Positions 34,221-58,943 of a stretch of DNA of 64,000 bases are shown piece by piece. The DNA is taken from NCBI RefSeq assembly GCF_025526975.1, contig NW_026515687.1:186001-250000 (forward strand), given 5' to 3'. The notes beneath the pieces were generated by a model. That model was not told the DNA's origin, did not search any database, and was given only the letters and a program-made list of their open reading frames with translations. The DNA comes from Fimicolochytrium jonesii. Lineage: Eukaryota. Position 1 is the stretch's first letter. Each line of letters opens with the position of its first letter. Position numbers and translations under genes: made by a program.

Positions 34221-35585
34221 CTACTGGGTGGTCTGCTCCGCATTCCCAAACGTGCCTTTCCGCTCCACCGCCCGTTCGGAGTACCCAAAGGTCCCCGGAT
34301 AAAGCGAATTCTCCAGCGTCGGGTTCCTGACTGTCAGCGCCGGGGGTACGAGGGGGTACGTCACTGACGGGGAGGTCGGTCGCTGCTCCGAGGAGACATC
34401 GTGGGATTCGTACCCAAGCTCGTCGCTAGCGGAGGGGATCTCGTAATGTTGCGGCGCCGGCGAGTGGGAGTGGGACGCGGCGAAGTGTTCGCCGCCCGAG
34501 TGGGAATCGTAGTCTTCGTAGGCTTCGGGGATGCCCAGCATGTGGGGGACGTAGGTGCCGTGTGGTTGTTGAGGGTGGTCGGGGTTGCTCATGTACGATT
34601 GGCGGGGGTCTGACTTGTTGGATCCTGCCCCGGGTACCACGGGAGCAAACACGCCCGTCCAGTCTCCGCTCTGGTAGTATGGCGAACTGGGCCGTATTGC
34701 GTAGTGGGAGAAGGTTAAGCGACGCTGCTCCTCTGGCGAGAGATGTTCTGGTAGGTCTTCTCCGCCGAAGACCGCCGGCGGATGCGGGGATGGGCTATGC
34801 ATGCCGGAGTGCATGCTGGGGTATGGTGATGCGGCGGAGTAGCGATGGGACATGGTCACACGGCCTTCTCCGGGCAGCATTTCCTCTTCGCTCACAGCCG
34901 GAGTGGACGGCGACTGGGCCATCATCATCGGAGCCAGCGAGTTCGTAGAAGGACTCAACATTCCTGGCTCACCTGACCCATAACCCTTCTTTTTCCGGAT
35001 ATCCTTGTATCTCTTGTACAGAAATTTGCCAATGTAGAACGCTGCGACTGCGCCGAAGAGTGTCAATATGATGATCATCGCCGCACCGCCAGCAGTCTTT
35101 GCAAATGGAGGTTTCTCTAAGTTGGAAGGGTCGGCTGATTGCGTTGAGTTCGGTAGACCAGCGTTTTCCGTAGGGGTTATGACTTCGTCCACCCATACAA
35201 CTGTTGAGACGATTCTTCTAGTCGGGGTTCCATTGGCGGTATCATCAACAGTGGAGAGAACCGTTCGTGGAGCTGACCTCGTGATGGGGTCGGCAGTGGG
35301 TATTTTCGTTGGAACCACGGTTGGCTTTGTAGTAGGAGGTGGAGGTGGTGGATCTGTCGTTTTAGGAGGTGGAGGAGGTGGTGGTGGGTCCGTCGTCTTC
35401 GGAGGTGGTGGAGGTGGCGGTGGGTCTGTTGTTTTGGGGGGCGGAGGAGGTGGTGGTGGGTCTGTCGTTTTAGGAGGTGGTGGCGGACGTACAGTGGTGG
35501 GAGTGTCGGGAGGAGGTGCTGAGGTCGTCGGCTTTGGGTCCGGGTCGTTTGTTGACATCGTGGTGAGGACTCCACTCGAGCTCAT
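34221..35585 (-). CDS. Single-pass membrane protein with Pro/Thr extensin- or mucin-like ectodomain
   Basis: KTTDPPPPPPPP repeats, TM AAMIIILTLFGAVAAFYIG followed by a basic stop-transfer stretch, Tyr/Pro-rich tail. Confidence 0.8.
   Translation of the reverse strand: MSSSGVLTTMSTNDPDPKPTTSAPPPDTPTTVRPPPPPKTTDPPPPPPPPKTTDPPPPPPPPKTTDPPPPPPPPKTTDPPPPPPTTKPTVVPTKIPTADPITRSAPRTVLSTVDDTANGTPTRRIVSTVVWVDEVITPTENAGLPNSTQSADPSNLEKPPFAKTAGGAAMIIILTLFGAVAAFYIGKFLYKRYKDIRKKKGYGSGEPGMLSPSTNSLAPMMMAQSPSTPAVSEEEMLPGEGRVTMSHRYSAASPYPSMHSGMHSPSPHPPAVFGGEDLPEHLSPEEQRRLTFSHYAIRPSSPYYQSGDWTGVFAPVVPGAGSNKSDPRQSYMSNPDHPQQPHGTYVPHMLGIPEAYEDYDSHSGGEHFAASHSHSPAPQHYEIPSASDELGYESHDVSSEQRPTSPSVTYPLVPPALTVRNPTLENSLYPGTFGYSERAVERKGTFGNAEQTTQ
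35330..35485 (-). repeat. 36-bp coding tandem repeat (about 4 copies) encoding KTTD-P8
   Basis: Visible in translation and as TC(T/C)GT(C/T)GT...GG(A/T)GG units on the + strand. Confidence 0.9.
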
Positions 35586-36209
35586 CAGCGGTAGGTCTTA
35601 GCACTCTGCTGTCGGCGACTTCGACCCGACCGGAGGACCCTGATTGAACTCTCTGGCCGGCTTCTTTTCCGAGCTCTCCCAATTCCTTCGCTGAACGACG
35701 CCGATGCCCACTCCGATGTTTGGCCTTGCCCTGCAGATGTTGCGAAAGGGCTCGTCGTCTCCTTTTCTGCCGTCTTATCCTCGAGTGTCCTCCACAAAAA
35801 CAACGTTGAGCAACGAGGCACGTTGCGAAGAAATGACGGCCGCCCGCTAGAACGCATCCAGCTAGCCCATCCCGTCTTTACAGCTCCTACTGCCCTCTCC
35901 CGGTATTTGCCCTTCAAAGTGCTCGTTACCATGATCCCAACAACTTGAACCCATCACCGGCGGTTGGTCGCATAGGAAGCTTTTTGAAGTTTCTCCGTCG
36001 TCTCTTCATGGTTACGCGGCCGTCCCAGTCTCCCAGACTCCCAGTGAAGAATTTGCGTCCTATTTCATTTAAGGATCCTGTTATGGAACCAAGATCCGGC
36101 CGGCGTCGTCTCCAGCTTCATCCCTGTGCGACTGTGCCGTTCCTCAGGTTGTCTTTGAAATGGAATGCCCAGCCACACCCGCGATCAGAGTCTGAGCGAG
36201 AGTCGTGGC

Positions 36210-36230
36210 TGACTCATCACAAGTGACTCA
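36210..36230. promoter_or_regulatory. Pair of Gcn4/CpcA (AP-1-like) elements
   Basis: TGACTCAT at 36210-36217 and TGACTCA at 36224-36230, upstream of the trp genes. Confidence 0.5.
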
Positions 36231-36921
36231 CCCGTCAAAAAGTGAGATCCCCAAACTCGACAAAAGGGCAGCCAAGTCGGGCTTTTTTCCCACCCGCAAG
36301 CCATAGATCATCGGAAAACTATCTGACAACATCGGCAACAAGCCCCTCAAGGAATCAGGCTCTCACCGCCTCTTGGGGAATCTCTTCGTAACCGCCAGCA
36401 GGCCGTCTGCTGGTCTCCTTTTTCTCCTTTCATAGGAATTCCCACTCAACTCGCAATCGTGGCGTCCACAACGTTTCGCCTCGGTTGGAGTTGTCCCGTC
36501 TTCGGGTCCGCGTCGGCGGCAGCAACAAACAGGTCCTTTCAATGGACTGTTGCCGACAACGACCTCGGTGTTGTAGCGTCCTCCACCAAGGTATGTAGTG
36601 GAAGTAGGGCGGAGTGAGAAGTGTCGGAGTTTTCCCACAGGTCCCTGGAGATCAGTCGGCACCGAGCGGAGCGAGGTTTGGTTCGGTTTGGGAGTCCGAG
36701 CGATAGGGAGGTTGACCAGAGCCAAACGCCTTCGCTAGGGACAGAGAGCGCGAGCGGAGCGAGCCACATTGCGCCAAAGGCGCAAGACCCCGTAATCACG
36801 GGCTTAGCGAGCGGCGGATCTTTTGCGAGCGAAGCGAGCATCATTGATGGTTTATGGTTGATGGTTGATGGTTGACGACGGATGTGTGGCAATACTCTTC
36901 ATCATGCTCACTATGTCTTGA

Positions 36922-37632
36922 TCTACTCAGAGTGTTGAGGACCTCCGCCGCGACGGGCAAAGCACAGTCAGCAACCGCCAGGCCAAAAGGCGTGTTCGTC
37001 ACCGTGCTCAAAAGCGCTATCGGAAAGTAACCGTCGATGCAACCGGGGTGGAATCTGCCGCTTTCCCTTGCCTTCCTTCCAGCCACACTTCTGATCAGGC
37101 CGTCAAAATCATGACGCCTACGGAAGGTCTTACCTACAAAGAGGCTCTCAAGGCTCCTGTCCCAACCGCGAGAGTAAAGTTCTGCATTTCTGCCGTGAAA
37201 ACCACAAAAACCACAATCTCGAAGCTTCGTACCATTCGATACGCCAGCTCCGGGTTTCCCACGAAGAACGTGAGGTCCACCCACACTTTCACTCGTGCCA
37301 CGCAAGTCCACCCTACAAAGATCACTGCAGCTCCGGCGCAAGCACGATTGATGACCCTTCCGATGATTGACCTTTGCCGCGACCGTCGCCGGCGTATCAC
37401 GAGTGTCAAACGTGGATGCACCGCCACTTTTCCCTCAACCTCTGGTCTTACGAGAAAGAACATTGCGCGCCTTCTCAACGGCAGGAATACCATCGACCCT
37501 CGCAGCCGAAAGGGAAATGATACACAGTTCGGCTCTAGGAACACCCTCTTCACCCCTATCTGGGCGAAATTCTCAATGCAATGGGATAGTGCGGCTATGT
37601 TTACATCAAGAAGCGCTGCTCAATCCGCTTGA
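36922..37632 (+). CDS. Orphan basic Thr/Arg-rich ORF (ORF-X) directly upstream of TRP2; first ATG 37111, may receive upstream exons
   Basis: Frame open 36922-37632. Splice-acceptor-like GCTCAC...CTCAG ends at 36930, and a GTATGT donor at 36591 joins in frame. No known domain. Confidence 0.4.
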   Translation, partial: STQSVEDLRRDGQSTVSNRQAKRRVRHRAQKRYRKVTVDATGVESAAFPCLPSSHTSDQAVKIMTPTEGLTYKEALKAPVPTARVKFCISAVKTTKTTISKLRTIRYASSGFPTKNVRSTHTFTRATQVHPTKITAAPAQARLMTLPMIDLCRDRRRRITSVKRGCTATFPSTSGLTRKNIARLLNGRNTIDPRSRKGNDTQFGSRNTLFTPIWAKFSMQWDSAAMFTSRSAAQSA

Positions 37633-37667
37633 ATCACTTTCTGCGAATCCGAATCGAAAACATCGCC

Positions 37668-39242
37668 ATGACTACCCGACTGAAGCCCAGTTTTGAAGAA
37701 ATCAAAGGTTACGCCGCAAAGAAGACTGGGAACATCATTCCCGTTTTCCGTAGCATATCGGCTGACCTACTTACCCCAGTATCCGCGTATCTGCGTCTGT
37801 CCACCACATCCAACTACTCCTTCCTCTTTGAATCCGTTACCGGAGGGGAGAAAATTTCCCGATACTCCTTTCTCGGTGCCAACCCGTTCAAAGTCATCCG
37901 AACCGGCGACAACGAGAACATCAAGGGCGACCCACTGATCGTCATCGAAAGCGAATTGAACAGCGTAAAGTACGTGGACGTACCCGAATTGCCCGAGTTC
38001 ACCGGTGGTGCCATCGGATACATTTCATACGACTGTGTGCGATACTTTGAGCCCCGTACAGCTCGAGCCGACATTCGCGATCCGTTCGGAATTCCCGACT
38101 CTGTGCTTATGTTCTGCGACACCATTGTCATCTTTGACCATCTCCACCATCTGATCAAAGTGGTGAGTCATTTCCGAGTGGACAACACCGAAGGTCCCGC
38201 AGACGAAGACTCCTTCGAGCGAGAGTATCAACGCGTCACGTCAGAGATCGAGAAAGTCGTTGAAATCCTGCGCGACGAGCACATCCCCACCCCAAACCAA
38301 CCCCCCATCATTCTGGGCGAGCAAGCCGAGTCGAACGTCGGACAGGCCGGCTACGAAAATTTCGTGCACAAACTGAAGCATCACATCAACGAAGGCGATA
38401 TCATCCAAGCCGTCCCATCCCAACGCATGAGGAAGAAGACAACCCTGCACCCCTTCAACGCCTACCGCACCCTCCGCAGCGTCAACCCTTCCCCCTACAT
38501 GTTCTACGTTGACGTGAAAGACTTCCAGATCGTCGGCGCATCACCGGAGATGCTCGTCAAAGTCGAGAAAGGAACCGTATATACCCACCCCATTGCGGGA
38601 ACACGCAAGCGCGGGAAGACACCGGCGGAAGACGAAGCCCTCGCCGCGGATTTACTCTCGGATATCAAGGAACGCTCCGAACATATCATGTTGGTCGATC
38701 TCGGCCGAAACGATGTCAACCGGATATGTGATCCCTCAACAGTGAAAGTCGATTCATTGATGCACATTGAGCGATACTCCCACGTCATGCATATCGTGTC
38801 CAACGTCTCTGGTCAGCTTCGTGAAGGGAAGACTCCCTACGACGCCTTCAGATCCATTTTCCCCGCCGGAACAGTTTCGGGTGCGCCGAAAGTCAAGGCC
38901 ATGGAACTCATCTACGAGCTCGAGCAAGAAAAACGCGGCATCTACGCTGGCGCCGTCGGCTATTTTGCATACTCTGGGGGTATGGATACCGCCATTGCGA
39001 TCCGAACGATGCTGTTCAAGGACGGGTTCGTCTACCTCCAAGCTGGAGCGGGAATTGTCTATGACTCTGTTGCGACCAGCGAATGGGAAGAAACCGTGAA
39101 TAAGCTGAAGTCGAACTTTACAGCGATTGAGACCGCTGAGGCGTACTACCAGACCCTCCAAGTGGAGAAGAAACCACACACGGCCATGCTCGAGCGCATG
39201 TGGTCTGACAACAACATCCAGAACCTCCACAGCGTCGGGTGA
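37668..39242 (+). CDS. TRP2: Anthranilate synthase component I, intronless
   Basis: DLLTPVSAYLRL, SFLFES, GDIIQAVPSQR, NPSPYMFY, GASPE, HPIAGTRKRG, EHIMLVDLGRND, FPAGTVSGAPK, QAGAGIV. Confidence 0.98.
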   Translation: MTTRLKPSFEEIKGYAAKKTGNIIPVFRSISADLLTPVSAYLRLSTTSNYSFLFESVTGGEKISRYSFLGANPFKVIRTGDNENIKGDPLIVIESELNSVKYVDVPELPEFTGGAIGYISYDCVRYFEPRTARADIRDPFGIPDSVLMFCDTIVIFDHLHHLIKVVSHFRVDNTEGPADEDSFEREYQRVTSEIEKVVEILRDEHIPTPNQPPIILGEQAESNVGQAGYENFVHKLKHHINEGDIIQAVPSQRMRKKTTLHPFNAYRTLRSVNPSPYMFYVDVKDFQIVGASPEMLVKVEKGTVYTHPIAGTRKRGKTPAEDEALAADLLSDIKERSEHIMLVDLGRNDVNRICDPSTVKVDSLMHIERYSHVMHIVSNVSGQLREGKTPYDAFRSIFPAGTVSGAPKVKAMELIYELEQEKRGIYAGAVGYFAYSGGMDTAIAIRTMLFKDGFVYLQAGAGIVYDSVATSEWEETVNKLKSNFTAIETAEAYYQTLQVEKKPHTAMLERMWSDNNIQNLHSVG

Positions 39243-39298
39243 TCATTGGAAAAAACAACGAAGAAACAAATCTACGCCAAAAAAGAAAATCGATCACA

Positions 39299-41779
39299 AT
39301 GACTACGCTACTAATCGATAACTACGACTCCTTCACCTGGAACGTCTACCAGTTCCTTTCCGAACTCGGCGCCGACGTGGTCGTGCACAGGAACGACCAG
39401 ATCACGCTGGAAGAATGTATCGCCCTCAACCCGCGCAACGTCGTCATCTCCCCCGGACCGGGCAAACCCAGCGACGCCGCCGTCTCCAATGACGTCATCC
39501 GTCATTTCGCTGGGAAGGTGCCCATCCTCGGTGTGTGTTTGGGCGAGCAATGCATGTACGAGATCTACGGAGGTGTAGTCACATACGCGGGTGAGATTGT
39601 GCATGGGAAGACGTCCCCGGTTAGACATGACGGTAGGGGCTTGTACGAGGGCGTGTTGCAGGATATTGAGTGTACGCGGTACCACTCCCTAGCCGGCGAT
39701 CCAAAGACGTTACCAGCGTCGTTGGAAATCACGAGCACGACGCCGAGTGGGCTGGTGATGGGTGTCAGGCACAAGGAATACATTATGGAAGGGGTGCAGT
39801 ACCACCCTGAGAGTATTGCGAGCGAATACGGAAAGCGGATGTTTGCTAATTTTCTGCGATGGGAGGGCGGCTTATGGAAGGACTTGAAGGTGGATGATAG
39901 CGCGGTCAAATGGGATGTCGTCAACGCGTCCATCGGGGCGGCTGCCGACACGGGGTCGTCCGCCGTGGGCGGGGGCATACCGTTGTCGAAGGTGTCGAAG
40001 ATGAACTCGACGGGTGCCGCCGCTTTCAAGGCGTCACAACCACCGGGCGGGAGCGGCGAAGGGATGCAAGTAGAACAGAAACCCGCCTCTCTCAAAGCCC
40101 AAAGCATCCTCGAGAAGATCCATGCCCAGCGGCTTCTCGACATCCAACACGCCTCGGCACAACCGGGACAGTCTATCCACCACCTTCAGCGATCCTTGGC
40201 GCTTGGACTCGCCCCGCCTCTGGTCGATTTCAGAGCGAGGGTATTGTCCGCCGCGCAGCCTGTCGCCGTCCTGGCCGAAATCAAGCGTGCTTCACCATCG
40301 AAAGGGGACATCAACATCACAGCCCACGCACCGACCCAAGCATTGGCATACGCGCACGCGGGCGCGGCGGTCATCTCGGTCCTCACCGAACCGAAATGGT
40401 TCAAAGGCTCCCTAGACGACATGCGACTCGTCCGACAAGCACTCGACACCCTTCCCACATCCATCGCCCGCCCCGCCGTGCTAAGAAAAGATTTTATCGT
40501 CGATCGGTACCAGATCCTGGAAGCACGGTTGAACGGCGCCGACACCCTCCTTCTGATCGTCGCGATCCTCACCGACGCCCAACTCACCGATCTCCTCGCG
40601 TATTCACGTACGCTTGGGATGGAACCGCTGGTGGAGGTGGCGAACGAGGAGGAAACCCGCCGGGCTGTTAACGTGGGCGCGACGGTTATTGGCGTCAACA
40701 ACAGGGATCTGCATACCTTTAACATGGATATGGACCGCACGAGCCGGTTGAGCACGCTTGTGCCTGACGGGATCGTTCTGATCGCCCTGAGCGGGATCGT
40801 GGGGAAGAAGGATGTGGATGTGTATGTTGCGGCGGGCGCGAAGGGGGTGTTGGTGGGTGAGGCCTTGATGCGGACGAAGGATAAGGGCGCGTTTATTGCT
40901 GGCTTGCTGGGTCGTGATGATACCCCTGTGGATCAATCGAGATTGGAGGTGGAAACGACCCGCCCGCTGGTCAAGATATGCGGAATCACCAATCTTGAGG
41001 ACGCCATCACCGCCACGAACGCGGGCGCCGACCTTCTAGGCCTCATATTCGCCCCGCAGAGCAAACGATATGTGAGCCCCGAAGACGCCCGGGTGATCGT
41101 CGACGGCGTGTTTGAACATTGTGGAGCGGAGGGATCCTCGTCTTCGCGAGAAGGCTGGGCATCGCGTGTGCCTCCGCTGCCCATCCCTGCACAGGGTACG
41201 AAGACCGCCGAGTGGCTCGGGGATGCCGCAAGACATATCCGGAGTTACGCCCATAAATCACCAAGAATGGAGGGGAAACGCAACCCACCTTTGATCGTCG
41301 GCGTCTTCGTCAACGCACCTCTTGACCAAATGCTCCGCATAATTCACACCGCCCATCTGGATATTGTCCAGTTCCACGGGCACGAACCGGCCCATCTTGC
41401 CTCGCTGCTGCCGTGTCCTGTTTTCAAGGCCGTTCATGTGCGAACGGAGGATACGGAGGCGGATGTCGCTGGCCGGTTGAAAAGGGATGAATGGGTAGGG
41501 ATGGCGGGCGTGTTACTGGATACCGCGGGCGCATCATCAACCCCTCACCACGGCGGCACAGGCACCCCCTTCGACCACTCCATTGCCACCGCCATCACGA
41601 AGCATCACGGGGTGCCGATTATACTCGCGGGCGGACTGACGGTGGAGAATGTGGCGGATGCGGTGAAGGGTGTGAAGCCGTGGTGTGTGGATGTGGCGAG
41701 TGGGGTTGAGAGGAGTAAGGGGAGGAAGGATGGGGGATTGGTGAGGGGGTTTGTGGGGGCGGTTAGGGGGGTGGAGTAA
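39299..41779 (+). CDS. trpC: Trifunctional anthranilate synthase component II / IGP synthase / PRA isomerase (fungal TrpG-C-F), intronless
   Basis: LIDNYDSFTWN, ISPGPG, GVCLGEQ and QYHPES (GATase). AEIKRASPSKG, SVLTE, LRKDF and GVNNRDL (IGPS). VKICGI, QFHGHE, LAGGL and DVASGVE (PRAI). Confidence 0.98.
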   Translation: MTTLLIDNYDSFTWNVYQFLSELGADVVVHRNDQITLEECIALNPRNVVISPGPGKPSDAAVSNDVIRHFAGKVPILGVCLGEQCMYEIYGGVVTYAGEIVHGKTSPVRHDGRGLYEGVLQDIECTRYHSLAGDPKTLPASLEITSTTPSGLVMGVRHKEYIMEGVQYHPESIASEYGKRMFANFLRWEGGLWKDLKVDDSAVKWDVVNASIGAAADTGSSAVGGGIPLSKVSKMNSTGAAAFKASQPPGGSGEGMQVEQKPASLKAQSILEKIHAQRLLDIQHASAQPGQSIHHLQRSLALGLAPPLVDFRARVLSAAQPVAVLAEIKRASPSKGDINITAHAPTQALAYAHAGAAVISVLTEPKWFKGSLDDMRLVRQALDTLPTSIARPAVLRKDFIVDRYQILEARLNGADTLLLIVAILTDAQLTDLLAYSRTLGMEPLVEVANEEETRRAVNVGATVIGVNNRDLHTFNMDMDRTSRLSTLVPDGIVLIALSGIVGKKDVDVYVAAGAKGVLVGEALMRTKDKGAFIAGLLGRDDTPVDQSRLEVETTRPLVKICGITNLEDAITATNAGADLLGLIFAPQSKRYVSPEDARVIVDGVFEHCGAEGSSSSREGWASRVPPLPIPAQGTKTAEWLGDAARHIRSYAHKSPRMEGKRNPPLIVGVFVNAPLDQMLRIIHTAHLDIVQFHGHEPAHLASLLPCPVFKAVHVRTEDTEADVAGRLKRDEWVGMAGVLLDTAGASSTPHHGGTGTPFDHSIATAITKHHGVPIILAGGLTVENVADAVKGVKPWCVDVASGVERSKGRKDGGLVRGFVGAVRGVE

Positions 41780-41880
41780 TATTTTTGTCGTATATGTTTG
41801 GGTACCAATCTGGATTTGCATTTTTCACACAAACGGGATCAAGGACTTTGCTTGGGTTCCTTCACTGGGGCGTCCGGATT

Positions 41881-43118
41881 ATGGCATCGTTATCCATTTT
41901 ATTGTTGGTGTCTCCGGTCACCTTCGTATGCAAAGGGCCTGGGCGGTCCAGCAACATTAGGCTAGCAGGTCCTTGCCATAAACGAACCATCACCGCTCTC
42001 CCCCATCCGGAAACAAGATCAGTCGTTGTGGGAGTTGCGGGAGGGATTTGCGTGAGAGCGTTCGATTTGCAAGTCCCTTTCCTTGAACTCGATCTGCAAC
42101 GCAACTGCCCAAAACAACATCATTATCGACTCAGCGACCCTTCACAATCGCACCCGCCCAACCTAGCTCTCTCCTAACCCACCATCTTCTCAGCACCCTT
42201 CAAACCATTCCATCCAATCAACATTCACCCTCTCGGTACGGCCACGCCCTCTACGCCCTCGGCGACCCCCACTCCCCATCCACTTCCATCCCCGCCCAAT
42301 GCGCCACCCTCGCCGCCTACGCGCTTGCCAACCGCGATACACGAATAGCGTTGTTGGTCGGTCGGGGGGTGGGTGAGGAGGGACGATGGTGGACTGCTGC
42401 TGGCGTGGGTGATCACCATGCCGAGATCAAGAACACGACCACGACGAATGATGACATGATGTATGTCCCAGTCGACATCTTCGGCGGGGCGTTCTCCACC
42501 CCCTCATCATCATCCGACCCGCCGCTCCATCTCTGGTTATCATTCACATCCCCCGCCGACCTCTCCCACATCCCAAGTGGGATTGTAGATACGATCGTGT
42601 TCGATTACTCGACGTGGCGGTATATGGTGTTGACGGAGGATGTTGTGGCTGCGTGGGGCAGGGTGTTGAGGGGGCGCGGGAGGGTTGTGTTTGAGGCTGG
42701 GGTTGCGGGGGTGAGGGGGGGCGACGGGGGGTGGGAGTTTGATAACCCGACGCACGTTACTGTGGGTGATGTGGGGATGTATGAGCTGCTTTGTGGGATG
42801 TTTTGTAAGAGGGAGGGGAAGGGGAACGGTTGGGGTGGTCCTTTGGGGCGATTGGTGCCCAGCAAACGCAACGACCCCGCCACCACGGGGAAACCACCAC
42901 CGTTCAACACACGGACAGTCCTCCCAGCGCCACGACAGCCACACCCGCCGCATCCGCTGCTGGGATCGTTGCATGGGCAGTATAGGAGCATATTTACACT
43001 GGAGCGGGGCTTCAGCGATGTGTTATTGCACTCGCGGGCGGACGGGGAGGGATACCGGCCGTACCCGATTCGGACTCGTGGGTTTATTGGGGAGTGGTTT
43101 GAGGCTGTTAAAAAGTGA
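41881..43118 (+). CDS. Hypothetical protein with signal-peptide-like N-terminus and class I SAM-methyltransferase-like segments, 3 exons
   Basis: Frame-consistent introns 41926-41968 and 42052-42193. IALLVGRG, YVPVDI, IPSGIVDTIVFD and WGRVLRGRGRVVF resemble Rossmann MTase motifs. Confidence 0.5.
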
Positions 43119-44633: not shown

Positions 44634-46190
44634 ATGAGCAGTTTCGGAAGGTGAGCCTTCGGTTTCTCCGTCAACCCCATTTCTTCCGATAGTAATGTCG
44701 TTTACCGTTCTTTATAGCATATTCCGAGTCACGACCTTCGGGGAGTCCCACTGCAAAGCCGTCGGCGTGATAGTCGACGGTGTTCCGCCAGGTCTGGCGC
44801 TCACGGAGGAGGATGTTCAGATTCAGCTCAGTCGGAGACGACCGGGGCAGAGTGACCTGACGACGCCGGTGAGTCCCCGAGAGAGAAGCTATGCAAAGCG
44901 TTCCATCCAGGGATGGGCTGACTGACAACTCCCCTCTCTATTTCCCGCAGCGCGATGAAAAAGACAAAGTCTCCATCCTCTCCGGCACCGAGAAAGGCTA
45001 CACCCTCGGCACGCCCATCGGCATGATGGTCGCCAACCAAGACCAACGCCCCTACGACTACGGCGAGATGGATTTCTACCCTCGCCCGTCGCACGCCGAC
45101 TTCACCTACCTGCAAAAATACGGTCTGAAAGCCAGCAGCGGCGGCGGTCGGTCGTCCGCGCGCGAGACCATCGGGCGGGTCGCGGCGGCGGGGATCGCGG
45201 AGAAGTTCCTGCGCGTCTCGCATGGGGTGGAGATTGTGGCGTTTGTGTCGTCGATCGGGAACGTGAACATGGAGCCGATGACGGGGTATGGCGCGCCGGA
45301 GGAGGAGGCGGGGTGGTTGGCAAAGTGGAGGAGCTGGTGGGGTACGTTGAGGAGTATCAAGCGGGAGGATGTAGATAAGAACGACGTGCGGTGTCCCGAT
45401 GCTGCGATCGCTGAGAGGATGCGACAGCGCATCGTCGCCGCCCGTGACACCCACGACTCGATCGGGGGCAACGTCGTCTGCGTTATCCGCAACGTCCCCG
45501 CGGGCCTCGGCGAGCCGTGTTTCGATAAACTGGAGGCGAAACTCGCCCATGCTATGATGTCCATCCCCGCCACGAAAGGCTTTGAGATTGGGAGCGGGGC
45601 GGCGGGGACGGATATCCCCGGACACGTGCATAACGACCCGTTTGTGTTGAGGGATGGGAAGTTGGGGACCACGACCAACTTCTCGGGAGGTGTGCAGGTA
45701 AACCCGTTCCATTCCCCCCCCCCCCCCCCCCCCCCTCTTCTACGTTGTTCCATATCCGCTACACCGCACACACACTCACCCCCAATCGATATGATTGCAG
45801 GGCGGAATAACCAACGGCGAAGACATCTACTTCAAAGTCGCCTTCAAGCCCCCCGCAACCATCGGGCAATCCCAAGCCACCGCGACCTACGACGGCGTGC
45901 ACGGTAACCTCGCCGCCAAAGGCCGGCACGACCCCTGTGTGCTGCCGCGGGCGGTGCCGATCGTTGAGGCGATGGCTGCTTTGGTTGTTATGGAGTAAGT
46001 TTGGGGAATACGTAGATCGTTTGGGCGCTGATTCATCGGCTTATTGGTTTACTTTTCTCCCCTTAGCTCGCTGCTACAGCAACTCAGCCGTGAATCAGCT
46101 CGCGCACTCATCCCGGCTGAGATGCAAGCGCAGATCCCGCCGGTGCTGACGGGGAAGCTGGACCGCGTCACCGTCGCGCAGGTGTTGTGA
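44634..46190 (+). CDS. ARO2: Chorismate synthase, 5 exons
   Basis: [80 protein letters not shown]. Confidence 0.97.
45714..45735 (+). repeat. Poly-C tract (about 22 nt) in an ARO2 intron
   Basis: Direct reading. Confidence 0.9.
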
Positions 46191-49302: not shown

Positions 49303-52155
49303 CTACTTCCCAACCGCCTTCCTCCGTCTCTTCGCCGCGCCCTTATCCCCCGCCCCAACAGCCATAATCCTCCCCACCCCGCCATCCCCAAACTCACTCG
49401 CACTCGCCCTCAACAAAACCTCATTCCGCTTCTTATACATCGCACTCCCGGGCTTCTCCCTCCTCTTCATCTCCTCCCTCTCCATCTTCTTCTCCTTCGC
49501 CCTCCTCGCGTTCTCCACATCCGCGACATCCAGCGGCTTATCCCGCAGCGCGAACGCCTTCGCAATGTGGCCCAGATGCAGGTTCTTGATGTGGAAAAAC
49601 GCACGCTCGGCGGGTGTATGCGTCGCATAGGCGCGGAGATGCGACGTGTATGCCGACTGCGCCAGGGTGAGGGTGTCCGGGTGCGCGAGGGTGAACCGCT
49701 CGTACATCATGTGCAGGTTCGTCGCGGGGAGCTCGTACGGTCGGCGGCCCTTTGCGTTGTTCGCGCGGAGGGGTTTGAGGGGGTCGTGCGTGTCGATGAG
49801 GTACGCGAGGGCGGCGGCGATGTCGGCTTGCGATAGGTGGATGTTCTTGGTGGCGAGGTAGGGCGCGTATTCGGATTCGGAGGGGAGGAGGAAGAGCATG
49901 GCGTGGCCCTGTCGGCCCAGTCGGGCTGTTCTGCCGACTCGGTGGACGTAGTCGTTGACGTCTGCGGGGGGGTCGTACTGGATGACGGCGGCGACGTCGG
50001 GCATGTCGAGACCGCGGGCGGCGACGTCTGTGCAGAAGAGGACCGCGTGGGTTGGGGTGGTGGTGAAGGCGGTGTAGGCGGCTGTGCGGGCGGATTGAGG
50101 GAGGGAGCCGTGGAGTTTGTAGATGTGGGTTGGGGAGGGGAGGAGGGGGGTTGGGGACGGGTTGGTGGTTTGGAGGAGGGTGGGTGGGGGTGGGGCGAGG
50201 CTGGGGTCGGAGAAGCGGGGTTTGAAGCGGGGTTTTTGGAAAGGCTTGGCGTCGTTATTATAGTCCTCGCCGTCCCCCCGTTCGTCGCCTTCACCCTCTT
50301 CTTCCTCTTCCTCTTCCGCTTCAGCATCCTGCTCAGCCTCCCTTCTCCGCATCTCCTCATCCGACGGCGCCTTATGCCCATTCGCCAGGATATGGTAATG
50401 AAAATCCACCGAATCGGTGCTAGACACAAACATCATAATCTTGCACGGTTTTCTGTCCCCCCTCACCAACGCATTCGACTCCCACGTCCTGATGATCTGC
50501 CTGCACACGCCGACTAATGTGACCAGTCGCAGCTTCGCGGGGACGATCAGGTACTGCTGTTTGAGCTGCTTCGGGACAGTGATGTCCGCGCCCTCGTCCG
50601 CGCCGTCCATGTCCATATCATCCGCGTCGACATCCCCCTCGGCCGATTTGTTGGTCTTGACCCCGCCCGCGGCTTCGCGCTCCTCCTTCAACCGTTTACT
50701 CTTCTCCCGCCTTGTTTCCGCTTTGACGAATTCCGGGTCGGTCAATGCTTCCTCGGCCAGTTTCTGCACCCCGCCCTGGATAGTCGCCGAACAGAGAATC
50801 GTCTGTCGATTCGGCGGCCACGATTTAACCATCAACCGTTTCCTCATCCTTCCCGCAACCTCCTTCTTCTCCGCCAAAATCCGCAGAATATCCCTCAATG
50901 TCTCCTCAAAGCCCAACTCGAGTAGTCGGTCAGCCTCGTCGAGCACGAGCCAGCGGAGGTTGCCGACCTCGAACGCTTTGGTGGTTTTGAGATGGTCGAG
51001 GAGGCGGCCGGGCGTGGAGACGAGGATGGTGACGCCGCGGCGGAGACGGGCTTTTTCGGATTTCTTTTTTTCGCCGCCCATGACGTTGCCGGCGACGATC
51101 CAGTGGCGGTGCGTAGTGCGGGGGGTGTCGGGTGTTGGGCCGGTGGGTGTGGGCGGTTTCGCTTTTATTGGTGACACTCGCTTTTCCTTTTTCTGGCCAT
51201 CTTCACCATCATCTTCCTCGTCGTCGTCATCGTCATCTTCATCCTCATCATCGCCGTATACAGCCGCCGCCCCATGCGCCGAATACTTCAACAACGAATT
51301 AAGCACATTCTCAATCTGCTTCGCCAACTCGCGCGTCGGCGCCAACACGATCGCCAACGTGCCCAGATCCCGCTTCAGCATCTCCTGCGCGCTATCCCCA
51401 AACTCCTTCTCCGCCATCAGCATTCTGTGCAGGATGGGCAGCAGGAAGGCTAGCGTTTTCCCGGATCCCGTCTGGGCTTGGAGGACGTGGTCTTTGTCTC
51501 TGTTGCGGAGGAGGGATGGGAGCGCGGCGCGTTGGATGAGAGTGGGGGCTTTGAAGTTGAGCTTGGTTGCCAGGTGGGCGCACATCACGGGGTCGAGCCC
51601 TAGACCGGGGAAGGAGGTCGTGTCGAAGATTTTTGGGGGTTGTTGTTGTTGTGGTTCTGGTGTTGGCTCTTCGACTTTCGGTTCCTGTGTCTTTTCTGCC
51701 GGTGCGGCTGACACTTCCGCCTCGGGGTTCATTGTGAAAATCGACGAAATGATCTGTTTTGTTCCGGGTAGTGGTTGCTTCGGCCGCGCATAGGTCTGCG
51801 CTCCCGTTCCATTCTGTCCCGCCGCCGCGCTCGTCCCGTTGTTCGCCCGTTTGGAAGAAGTATGATCATGGTCCTCCTCCTCACCCTCCGGCCGCTTCCG
51901 TTTCTCCCCTGCTCCCTCTCCTTCTCCGACTGCACCAAATTGTTTCCTTAGAGTTTCTGCTGTTTCAGCGCGTTCCTGCTTCTTGACTCTCTGAATGACC
52001 TTTTTGGCTTCGAGGCGCTTAGCTCTCCAGCCGCCTCGCTTGTTGACGAGCGAGGCTGCGACGTCGTTTACTCTTAAGGAAGTCTTCTTTTTCGCCACGA
52101 CGGGAGTAGAGTCGTCGGCCGTGGCGAAGTTTAGCATTAAGCCGTCGTCGTCCAT
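49303..52155 (-). CDS. DBP7: DEAD-box RNA helicase Dbp7/DDX31, intronless
   Basis: MDDDGLMLNF start, AQTGSGKT, PTRELA, GGEKKKSEKARLRRG, DEADRLLELGFE, SAT, HRVGRTAR, LHLGHIAKAFALRD. Confidence 0.95.
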   Translation of the reverse strand: MDDDGLMLNFATADDSTPVVAKKKTSLRVNDVAASLVNKRGGWRAKRLEAKKVIQRVKKQERAETAETLRKQFGAVGEGEGAGEKRKRPEGEEEDHDHTSSKRANNGTSAAAGQNGTGAQTYARPKQPLPGTKQIISSIFTMNPEAEVSAAPAEKTQEPKVEEPTPEPQQQQPPKIFDTTSFPGLGLDPVMCAHLATKLNFKAPTLIQRAALPSLLRNRDKDHVLQAQTGSGKTLAFLLPILHRMLMAEKEFGDSAQEMLKRDLGTLAIVLAPTRELAKQIENVLNSLLKYSAHGAAAVYGDDEDEDDDDDDEEDDGEDGQKKEKRVSPIKAKPPTPTGPTPDTPRTTHRHWIVAGNVMGGEKKKSEKARLRRGVTILVSTPGRLLDHLKTTKAFEVGNLRWLVLDEADRLLELGFEETLRDILRILAEKKEVAGRMRKRLMVKSWPPNRQTILCSATIQGGVQKLAEEALTDPEFVKAETRREKSKRLKEEREAAGGVKTNKSAEGDVDADDMDMDGADEGADITVPKQLKQQYLIVPAKLRLVTLVGVCRQIIRTWESNALVRGDRKPCKIMMFVSSTDSVDFHYHILANGHKAPSDEEMRRREAEQDAEAEEEEEEEGEGDERGDGEDYNNDAKPFQKPRFKPRFSDPSLAPPPPTLLQTTNPSPTPLLPSPTHIYKLHGSLPQSARTAAYTAFTTTPTHAVLFCTDVAARGLDMPDVAAVIQYDPPADVNDYVHRVGRTARLGRQGHAMLFLLPSESEYAPYLATKNIHLSQADIAAALAYLIDTHDPLKPLRANNAKGRRPYELPATNLHMMYERFTLAHPDTLTLAQSAYTSHLRAYATHTPAERAFFHIKNLHLGHIAKAFALRDKPLDVADVENARRAKEKKMEREEMKRREKPGSAMYKKRNEVLLRASASEFGDGGVGRIMAVGAGDKGAAKRRRKAVGK

Positions 52156-52874
52156 GGTGGGCGAGGATATATAACTGATAGTTGAGGAACTTCGTATGAG
52201 ACCGGGTACGTATATCGAGGAGTGGCAGCACAGCAGCACGGGTATATATATATGGCGCTCCTCTTCTCGTGTATTTATGGGGTCTTCCAGCGGCGGTTTC
52301 TTGCAGGGTTCAGCACAGGTCTCCAGTGAGAGATGCAAAAAGGTGGGAGAGTGCGTGAAGGAACACGCCTTGTATGAATCGCACGTGACTGAGCATGGGG
52401 CGATGCAATTAATTGCCCCCCCCCCCGTCATTCCATCATCATCATCATCCTCAATTTGGCTTTTTGGCTCCCATTTGCCGCCGAGAACTCACTCACTCCC
52501 TTTGGCCGCTAGCTAACCCCTACCAGCGACGCAAACGAAACCCCCCCCCCCCCCCCCTCCCCCATACCCATACCCACAACACCATCGGCTTCCCCACCGC
52601 ACATCCGTCGCTTAGGCGCTTGCTTGGACCGCCTTTCAAACTGCCTCACTCGTGCGGTTGTCACTTTAGCAACCTCGCGAACGTGGAGAGCGCTGGCTGT
52701 CAAGTCTGCAGGCTTTGAGCTTCGCCAAACATCCAACCCCTCGTACGCGATCTGGAACTTACATCCCGTGGATTCCGGCTTCCGCTAGTCAATATTCGAC
52801 GGCACTCGTCCTCGTGTACTTAGTCTTCTTTTGGGGCAAGATTTGCTAGCTGCGGGCAGGCTAGCAAGACACTC

Positions 52875-58824: not shown

Positions 58825-58943
58825 ATGGAGCTGCAAGATATTCCGGCCAACTACGGTGTAGTAAAGCACGAGCCGAGGCATTATGCAGACTACCTGATAC
58901 CCCCTGCCATGACGATGGGCATGCCCGACATCGCTCCTCCGCG

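What the first reader, a model, noticed from the sequence alone, without database searches (positions are those of the whole stretch)
37668..41779. Operon-like fungal trp locus: TRP2 and trifunctional trpC head-to-tail with a 56-nt A-rich spacer
Seen: TRP2 stops at 39240-39242 and trpC starts at 39299. The 56-nt spacer is about 55% A (31/56), and both genes are intronless in an intron-rich neighbourhood. Known: these encode the two subunits of one anthranilate synthase complex and are unlinked in model yeasts and filamentous fungi. The domain order E then G-C-F mirrors bacterial trp operons, but the G-C-F fusion is the fungal type. Inference: 56 nt leaves little room for a terminator plus a promoter, so this may be a native eukaryotic bicistronic mRNA giving stoichiometric subunits, with the A-rich spacer aiding reinitiation or internal entry.
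Basis: partly seen in the sequence, partly recalled or inferred. Interest (0 to 1): 0.9.

Follow-up and report, generated by a model that had tools for sequence, protein, structure and literature searches.

The report
Three-gene tryptophan operon in chytrid fungi
In this chytrid fungus two tryptophan-making genes and an uncharacterised leader gene lie only 35 and 56 bases apart; the two enzyme genes are neighbours or fused in most swimming-spore fungi checked, and all three are likely read from one message, like a bacterial operon.

Summary
In detail: TRP2 (524 aa), a 56-nt spacer with 31 A, then G-C-F trpC (826 aa), both intronless and out of frame. The unit is larger than reported. A conserved 277-codon leader ORF, with a predicted GUG start and one intron, ends 35 nt before TRP2. 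Four relatives have CUG at the same codon, under two conserved hairpins that each hold a Trp codon. TRP2 and trpC are neighbours, on one contig, or in one gene model in 33 of 43 other zoosporic fungi, against 0 of 12 Mucoromycota/Zoopagomycota. Three spliced rumen-fungus-like contigs carry all three ORFs (spacers 25-29 and 26-87 nt), and one 124-nt internal exon holds both the leader's stop and TRP2's start. Best reading: one tricistronic mRNA whose downstream ORFs are likely reached by reinitiation, since 10 and 17 upstream AUGs argue against leaky scanning. It is not proven: there are no reads for this locus, short-read assembly can merge neighbours, and overlapping separate mRNAs remain possible. 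Ten literature searches listed no description. Bold reading: a Trp-sensing translational leader in a eukaryote.

The parts
36414..36431 (+). 18-nt pyrimidine tract before the leader: candidate promoter/start-site tract, or the 3' splice site of a 5'-UTR intron (TAG follows)
   Evidence: longest C/T run in 35900-42300; function inferred
36447..36493 (+). Hairpin 1; holds the predicted GUG start (36459-36461, context AUC GUG G) in its 5' arm and Trp codon 10 (36486-36488) in its 3' arm
   Evidence: z -5.2; same layout with ACC CUG G in L001-L004
36512..36557 (+). Hairpin 2; apical stem GGUCY/GGACY with a 7-nt loop, overlapping the second Trp codon (36543-36545)
   Evidence: z -2.75; apical stem kept in 5 of 5 sequences
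36459..36590 (+). Leader ORF exon 1 (44 codons, no in-frame ATG; start predicted at GTG)
36591..36930 (+). Predicted 340-nt GT-AG intron of the leader (phase 0); holds three CGAGCGRAGCGAG copies
   Evidence: joins SSTK|SVEDL as in relatives; repeats
36931..37632 (+). Leader ORF exon 2 (233 codons; motifs RHRAQKR, DLCRDRRRRI, FTPIWAKFSMQW; Trp codons at 37561 and 37582; TGA 37630-37632)
   Evidence: homologues; no family in Pfam, NCBIfam or PDB
37633..37667 (+). 35-nt spacer, leader to TRP2
   Evidence: 22-29 nt in L001-L004
37668..39242 (+). TRP2, anthranilate synthase component I, 524 aa, intronless
39243..39298 (+). 56-nt A-rich spacer, no ATG, no AATAAA/ATTAAA
   Evidence: 26, 87 and 65 nt in L001-L003
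39299..41779 (+). trpC (GATase-IGPS-PRAI), 826 aa, intronless
41780..41879 (+). T-rich 3' flank (37% T, TATATG, two T5 runs): candidate single 3' end of the unit
   Evidence: 18-19% T in the 100 nt after the other two stops

Best explanation
Three same-strand ORFs (a leader with a predicted GUG start, TRP2 and trpC) lie 35 and 56 nt apart and are likely transcribed as one spliced mRNA, from which TRP2 and trpC are likely made as separate proteins by ribosomes that reinitiate after finishing the ORF upstream. Shown: the three ORFs, the short spacers, the different frames, conserved TRP2-trpC linkage across zoosporic fungi, the conserved near-cognate codon, and the coding pattern of the leader's pre-AUG part. 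Predicted: the two hairpins. Inferred: one promoter before the leader and one 3' end after trpC (about 0.7). Inferred: reinitiation rather than scanning or internal entry (about 0.7 if the mRNA is single). Inferred and weakest: the weak start and the Trp codons make ribosome loading into the leader respond to tryptophan. Trp codon 10 lies 9 codons after the start in 5 of 5 sequences, about one ribosome length (spacing recalled). A pause there would queue the next ribosome on the GUG/CUG and send more ribosomes on to both enzyme ORFs. Adjacency is likely ancestral in zoosporic fungi; it likely became a fused E-G-C-F protein at least three times and was lost at least four times among chytrids.
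For: 0 of 12 Mucoromycota/Zoopagomycota share a contig length. 3 of 5 metagenome loci hold all three ORFs. L001-L004 lack introns seen in L005, whose exons are 91-99% identical to L002 in the three longest matches. L005's 124-nt internal exon holds the leader's stop, the spacer and TRP2's ATG. Spacers go down to 22 and 26 nt. In the window only trpC has a T-rich 3' flank and only the leader has a long pyrimidine tract upstream. CUG/GUG sits at the same codon in strong context in 5 of 5. Variable sites in the 25 pre-AUG codons fall 4/1/13 by codon position. The hairpins beat synonymous shuffles: 4, 1, 0, 0, 0 of 300. There are 10 AUGs before TRP2 and 17 before trpC within TRP2. trpC starts at the minimal Met in 18 of 21 linked but 1 of 10 unlinked species, which represent about four events. 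Fused forms are rejected as one clade (p-AU 3e-92; 7e-6 without Thoreauomyces).
Against: No full-length read or start-site datum was seen for any species. Short-read assembly merges neighbours: L001 also joins a divergent gene and L002 runs into a further ORF. TRP2's 3' 358 codons seem to be a single exon in related genomic contigs, so no splice links TRP2 to trpC. Several unnamed contigs of 2.3-2.4 kb (TRP2) or 2.6-3.0 kb (trpC) are too short for both genes (DNA not seen). The L001-L003 spacers contain AATAAA 1, 3 and 4 times (AT-rich). 10 of 43 species have unlinked the genes. For the 21 accession or contig pairs, orientation and distance are unknown. 35, 56, 65 and 87 nt exceed the ~30-nt limit reported for viral reinitiation (PMC10275272, passages). 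No conserved structure lies before either downstream AUG. In L001-L004 an in-frame AUG at codon 26 could bypass the CUG. Four Trp in 277 codons is no enrichment. Start codon and hairpins rest on two independent lineages only.
Confidence: 0.5

Rival explanations
1. Tightly packed but separately transcribed genes: TRP2 and trpC have their own promoters inside the upstream ORF, their mRNAs overlap, and any read-through is a by-product, as in mushroom polycistronic units.
For: Assemblies merge neighbours (L001, L002). Shorter single-gene contigs exist. 10 of 43 species unlinked the pair. An 80-nt block without synonymous change before TRP2 (0 of 23 codons, picked after the fact) and three intronic repeats could be promoter elements. 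Agaricomycete polycistronic genes are also transcribed independently (PMC4503453, passages).
Against: The shared internal exon between leader and TRP2; spacers of 22-29 nt; no T-rich flank after the first two stops in the window; 3 of about 4 unlinking events came with a new trpC N-terminus.
Confidence: 0.3
2. One mRNA, but the A-rich unstructured spacers recruit ribosomes internally, independent of upstream translation.
For: Spacer 2 is 55% A in the window and 69-72% A in L001-L003, and the junction regions of L001-L003 fold no better than shuffles (z +1.4, +0.8, -0.4).
Against: Length and sequence are not conserved (26-87 nt). Flanks in those genomes are also A-rich. Spacer 1 in the window is only 31% A.
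Confidence: 0.12
3. The leader encodes a real trans-acting protein (basic, mostly disordered, perhaps RNA-binding or a TRP2 partner) rather than a cis-acting sensor; exon skipping in intron-bearing species would fuse it to TRP2. This can hold alongside a single mRNA.
For: 233-277 aa, pI 10.2-11.5, with separate conserved blocks. Six public models join the leader's last Trp to TRP2's first residues, and L005's introns would allow that in frame.
Against: 4 of 4 spliced contigs keep the exon. The window has neither intron. The middle of the protein varies freely in length. There is no confident fold (pLDDT 47.5).
Confidence: 0.3
4. The two ORFs give one fused polypeptide by a -1 frameshift or an unannotated intron.
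For: The trpC frame is open from 39209, 31 nt before TRP2's stop. The motif-to-motif distance (90.7 codons) resembles most fused linkers (94-129 aa). True fusions exist in relatives.
Against: No XXXYYYZ site in 39191-39245. In-frame splices need an AAG acceptor with no pyrimidine tract. Spacer frame differs among relatives (mod 3 = 2, 0, 2). Spliced contigs keep the stop.
Confidence: 0.03

Closest known systems
Glarea lozoyensis glpks3-glnrps7 operon (PMC4471562, passages)
   Same: Fungal; two functionally coupled ORFs 26 bp apart on one mRNA, giving two proteins; no poly(A) signal in the gap
   Different: That case is secondary metabolism in one species and was shown by experiment. Here it is core metabolism, three ORFs, conserved across several phyla, with a non-AUG leader, and untested at the bench.
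Green algal polycistronic loci (PMC7896298, passages)
   Same: Closely spaced ORFs in no fixed frame, conserved between species
   Different: Those fit leaky scanning; here TRP2 has an A/G-3 start context and 17 AUGs ahead of trpC.
uCC leaders of AZIN1/ODC mRNAs (PMC2811004 and PMC11550727, passages)
   Same: Conserved upstream coding region with a non-AUG start in strong context, conserved residues near the C-terminus, ahead of a biosynthetic enzyme; pausing and queuing boost use of the weak start
   Different: uCCs are 22-100 codons, carry Pro-Pro and repress. This leader is 233-277 codons, has an intron, has many internal AUGs, and would have to deliver ribosomes rather than block them.
Agaricomycete polycistronic transcription units (PMC4503453, passages)
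   Same: Tandem fungal ORFs on read-through RNAs; ORF1 lacks U-rich 3' signals
   Different: Those genes are also transcribed independently; here the partners are subunits of one enzyme, with 22-87-nt gaps.
Bacterial trp operon with trpL leader (recalled; attenuation touched on)
   Same: Order leader, E, G, C, F; Trp codons inside predicted hairpins at the 5' end
   Different: Fungal-type genes with spliceosomal introns; no coupling of transcription and translation; long leader; no terminator hairpin; no sequence relative of the leader in prokaryote genomes (0 of 526 pattern hits).
Induced 80S reinitiation on bicistrons in yeast (PMC11952965, abstract and passages) and viral TURBS reinitiation (PMC10275272, passages)
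   Same: Reinitiation after a long ORF, favoured by short gaps
   Different: Those are engineered or viral. Here several gaps exceed 30 nt and no TURBS-like structure was found.

Membership tests
Fungal TRP2 and multifunctional TrpC (G-C-F) | Domain content and order; nearest relatives fungal | tested here: met
   best hits are chytrids at 76-80% (TRP2) and 59-63% (trpC)
Eukaryotic operon with unprocessed polycistronic mRNA (Glarea type) | Same-strand, functionally coupled ORFs with a very short gap and separate stop and start | tested here: met
Eukaryotic operon with unprocessed polycistronic mRNA (Glarea type) | One full-length transcript covers all ORFs | tested here: inconclusive
   3 of 5 loci are spliced contigs spanning all ORFs, and one exon is shared; assembly can merge neighbours
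Eukaryotic operon with unprocessed polycistronic mRNA (Glarea type) | No poly(A) signal in the gap | tested here: inconclusive
   none in the window's two spacers; AATAAA present in the AT-rich L001-L003 spacers
Eukaryotic operon with unprocessed polycistronic mRNA (Glarea type) | No start site for the downstream genes; separate proteins detected | not testable with these tools
   needs cap mapping and proteomics
Leaky-scanning polycistrons (green algal type) | Weak upstream start and few AUGs before the downstream ORF | tested here: not met
   10 AUGs before TRP2, 17 before trpC; out-of-frame AUGs in TRP2 4 vs 7.5 expected, P 0.10; 42-50 in L001-L003
uCC (AZIN1/ODC type) | [quoted passage not shown] | tested here: met
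uCC (AZIN1/ODC type) | 22-100 codons with a Pro-Pro motif near the C-terminus | tested here: not met
   233-277 codons; C-terminal motif is P.WA.F.L.W
uCC (AZIN1/ODC type) | Metabolite-dependent control of the main ORF | not testable with these tools
   needs reporters or ribosome profiling with and without Trp
TURBS reinitiation | Stop and start within about 30 nt, with a structured element upstream | tested here: not met
   gaps 22-35 and 26-87 nt; no conserved fold, 0 of 30 pairs covary; pairing to the fungus's own 18S rRNA not tested
Horizontally acquired bacterial operon (10.1101/399394, passages) | Genes nested among bacterial sequences | tested here: not met
   TRP2 groups with Spizellomycetales/Rhizophlyctidales (99/97; the tree had no bacterial rows); nearest hits all fungal; fungal G-C-F fusion; introns
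Known structured RNA family | Rfam match | tested here: not met
   0 matches at E<=1 in window 35500-42500 and in L002-L005

The most novel reading that the evidence does not exclude
Zoosporic fungi keep a native, ancient trp operon with its own leader. A hairpin-held GUG/CUG start and a Trp codon one ribosome-length downstream sense tryptophan by ribosome queuing. Ribosomes loaded on the leader are handed on, by reinitiation after long ORFs, to TRP2 and then trpC. This would be a eukaryotic, purely translational counterpart of trpL-trpEGCF, and the stepping stone to repeated E-G-C-F fusions.
Probability: 0.22. Interest if true: 0.94.

Novelty: new variant of a known kind. Interest (0 to 1): 0.8.

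Why it matters
Native eukaryotic polycistrons of core metabolism conserved across phyla are scarcely documented, and reinitiation after long cellular ORFs is an open question. This locus occurs in culturable fungi, in natural variants (linked, fused, unlinked). It makes three things directly testable: cellular long-ORF reinitiation, amino-acid sensing by a non-AUG leader, and the route from operon to gene fusion. It also flags a conserved protein family that annotations truncate or merge into TRP2, and gives native 22-87-nt spacers for multi-gene expression.

Tried and rejected
No whole genome is held for this window. No RNA holder was listed, so no reads were laid; this is not evidence either way. 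The HMMER search of protein representatives for the leader family was never accepted, so its range outside the species named is unknown. Complex prediction for leader + TRP2 was not available; no verdict. ESM Atlas: no usable hit for P0360; the second query did not complete. AlphaFold model of the leader: pLDDT 47.5, so no fold search was run. No match in Pfam, NCBIfam or PDB. Prokaryote genomes 0 of 526 and viral contigs 0 of 72 pattern hits confirmed. Rejected: two annotated introns in trpC; frameshift or splice fusion; leaky scanning to trpC; conserved structure before TRP2 or trpC (the window's z -3.9 fold at 39170-39290 is not seen in relatives); ApT counts as a promoter proxy were uninformative. 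One search used exon borders off by one base; corrected. The tree left out 11 of 66 rows that my motif cut missed. Left out of the 43: species with only one gene listed or no contig length (S. punctatus, Clydaea, Lobulomyces, Boothiomyces x2, Rhizoclosmatium, two Chytriomyces, Blyttiomyces JEL0837, Nowakowskiella JEL0078, the Hompol1 record, and the Neocallimastix, Piromyces and Pecoramyces records). Three papers asked for by id were not held (the last two are one work). Earlier scan notes: nothing relevant.
Full report
1. Observation. All coordinates and counts are right. trpC lies in the -1 frame to TRP2. The window's trpC is identical, outside two gaps, to a protein named Fimicolochytrium jonesii (P0095), and both window proteins are recorded on a 573,532-base contig. 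The two gaps are coding in relatives, so trpC is intronless.

2. Linkage. I scored every other named zoosporic species for which both genes were listed. Twelve have consecutive accessions: Powellomyces, Rhizophlyctis, B. dendrobatidis (8 accession pairs), two Gaertneriomyces, Phlyctochytrium arcticum, Anaeromyces, Polychytrium, Hyaloraphidium, Gonapodya prolifera, Polyrhizophydium (1 of 2 assemblies) and Paraphysoderma. Twelve have one E-G-C-F model. Ten are on different contigs: two Geranomyces, B. salamandrivorans, Zopfochytrium, Cladochytrium tenue, Physocladia, Chytriomyces MP71, Siphonaria, Obelidium and Podochytrium; some of these assemblies are fragmented. Total 33 of 43. Of 12 Mucoromycota/Zoopagomycota with both genes listed, none share a contig length. 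Accessions and contig lengths give no orientation or distance.

3. Fusions. Of the 12 single models, 8 lack the trpC Met and have 96-129-aa linkers. Five blastoclad linkers share a motif, so those fusions are likely real. Four look like merged neighbours: two keep MTT(L/I)L and two lose the GATase start. On a TRP2 tree (55 rows) the fused forms fall in separate starred groups. One clade is rejected in a 26-row test (the group was labelled before the trees were drawn, but the test was run after seeing them). Nucleariid TRP2 sequences are stand-alone. Adjacency with repeated fusion and loss is the simplest reading. The root is not inferred, so repeated fission is not excluded.

4. A third ORF. 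Long N-terminal extensions on TRP2 models, and a 210-aa neighbour of Neocallimastix TRP2 (P0360), match window 36465-37620. The window's ORF has a 340-nt intron and stops 35 nt before TRP2. It is seen directly upstream of TRP2 in Rhizophlyctis, Quaeritorhiza, Synchytrium microbalum, P. planicorne, Polychytrium (not in the profile; E 1.5e-8), Piromyces and Neocallimastix. Exon 1 has no in-frame ATG. L001-L004 have ACC CUG G and the window AUC GUG G, each nine codons before the Trp of (L/F)R(F/L)GW. The 25 codons before the first AUG vary mostly at third positions (4/1/13). Two hairpins are predicted over this start in 5 of 5 sequences (z -2.6 to -4.1) and survive synonymous shuffling. This 120-nt stretch was the most stable of 79 scanned in the window, the first of 60 in L003 and the third of 60 in L002. 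Each hairpin holds a conserved Trp codon. With two independent lineages, covariation cannot be judged. The product is basic, mostly disordered and of no known family.

5. Transcript evidence, from relatives only. The scan confirmed 5 of 595 pattern hits. L005 has GT-AG introns (two mapped exactly, 373-499 and 624-743; two more evident from alignment breaks) that L001-L004 lack, so the latter are likely spliced. L001-L003 carry leader, TRP2 and trpC, with gaps of 25/26, 29/87 and 25/65 nt. The exon between L005's two mapped introns holds the leader's last 29 codons, its stop, the spacer and TRP2's first two codons. This ties leader and TRP2 to one pre-mRNA more firmly than TRP2 to trpC. An unnamed Logan pair also shares a 4,925-base contig length (P0379/P0139). 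Against: L001 joins a divergent gene and L002 a further ORF; shorter one-gene contigs exist; no splice links TRP2 to trpC.

6. Mechanism. Scanning past 10 and then 17 AUGs is implausible. Frameshift or splice fusion has no signal. That leaves reinitiation, internal entry or separate promoters. Short gaps kept in both lineages, without a conserved spacer sequence or fold, fit reinitiation best; short gaps favour it in yeast (PMC11952965). Flank composition fits one start and one end, weakly. The leader gives ribosomes a frame through the internal AUGs. By analogy with queuing on AZIN1 (PMC11550727, passages), a pause at Trp10 would raise use of the weak start when Trp is scarce; the ribosome spacing of about ten codons is recalled. 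This step is a hypothesis, and the in-frame AUG at codon 26 of L001-L004 weakens it. The 80-nt synonymously invariant block before TRP2 is unexplained: it may be a reinitiation, splicing or promoter element.

7. Literature. Ten searches (listings only) showed no paper on this locus: 0 papers for polycistronic + chytrid + anthranilate synthase, and only unrelated ones for Neocallimastigomycota + polycistronic. The library lacks most subscription papers. I read passages, not whole texts, of PMC2871058, PMC4503453, PMC7896298, PMC2811004, PMC4471562, PMC11952965, PMC10275272, PMC12019607, PMC11550727, PMC3942023 and 10.1101/399394. No supplements were opened; gene-order or gene-fusion tables there may already list the pair.

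8. Verdict. The locus is real, conserved and larger than flagged. It works most likely like a eukaryotic operon with a non-AUG leader; membership in that class awaits full-length RNA. Interest 0.8; new variant of a known kind.

Noticed in passing
window ~44634-46000+, + strand: Chorismate synthase (Pfam Chorismate_synt), the enzyme making TRP2's substrate, lies 2.9 kb after trpC with two ORFs between; four GT donors seen by eye. Linkage in other species was not checked.
   Followed up: no
window 36663-36838: Three copies of CGAGCGRAGCGAG, spaced 88 and 75 nt, inside the leader's intron; 4 matches in 64 kb against 0.31 expected. Possible factor-binding sites.
   Followed up: partly
L005 373-743; models P0341, P0223, P0005, P0218, P0363, P0375: Phase-0 introns after the leader's last Trp and after TRP2 codon 2 would let exon skipping fuse the leader to TRP2. 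Six public models show that join; 4 of 4 spliced contigs keep the exon; the window lacks both introns.
   Followed up: partly
window 39150-39242 (TRP2 tail): TRP2 has a C-terminal tail with a loose LLEQ-like motif in many linked chytrids (median 60 vs 45 residues after AGxGIV in unlinked ones). Species are not independent.
   Followed up: partly
window 37581-37589; L001-L004 at the same Trp codon: A two-codon AUG-x-stop ORF overlaps the leader's last Trp codon in the window and in all four spliced contigs; its frame to TRP2 is not conserved.
   Followed up: no
proteins P0030, P0031, P0032, P0035: Unnamed ~2,100-aa proteins carry TrpE, GATase, PRT, IGPS, PRAI and PALP domains in one chain; unnamed E-G-C-F fusions P0008, P0024, P0025, P0028, P0034 and P0086 also occur.
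   Followed up: no
window 39170-39290: The end of TRP2 folds better than shuffles (z -3.9); the junction regions of L001-L003 do not.
   Followed up: partly
window 130-54872: Other genes by Pfam: doublecortin, PB1, CBS, radical SAM, CS, RhoGAP, chitin synthase, LRR and F-box/LRR, cNMP-binding, DEAD-box helicase (49303-52431, minus strand), RhoGEF. A CAA repeat lies near 58940.
   Followed up: no
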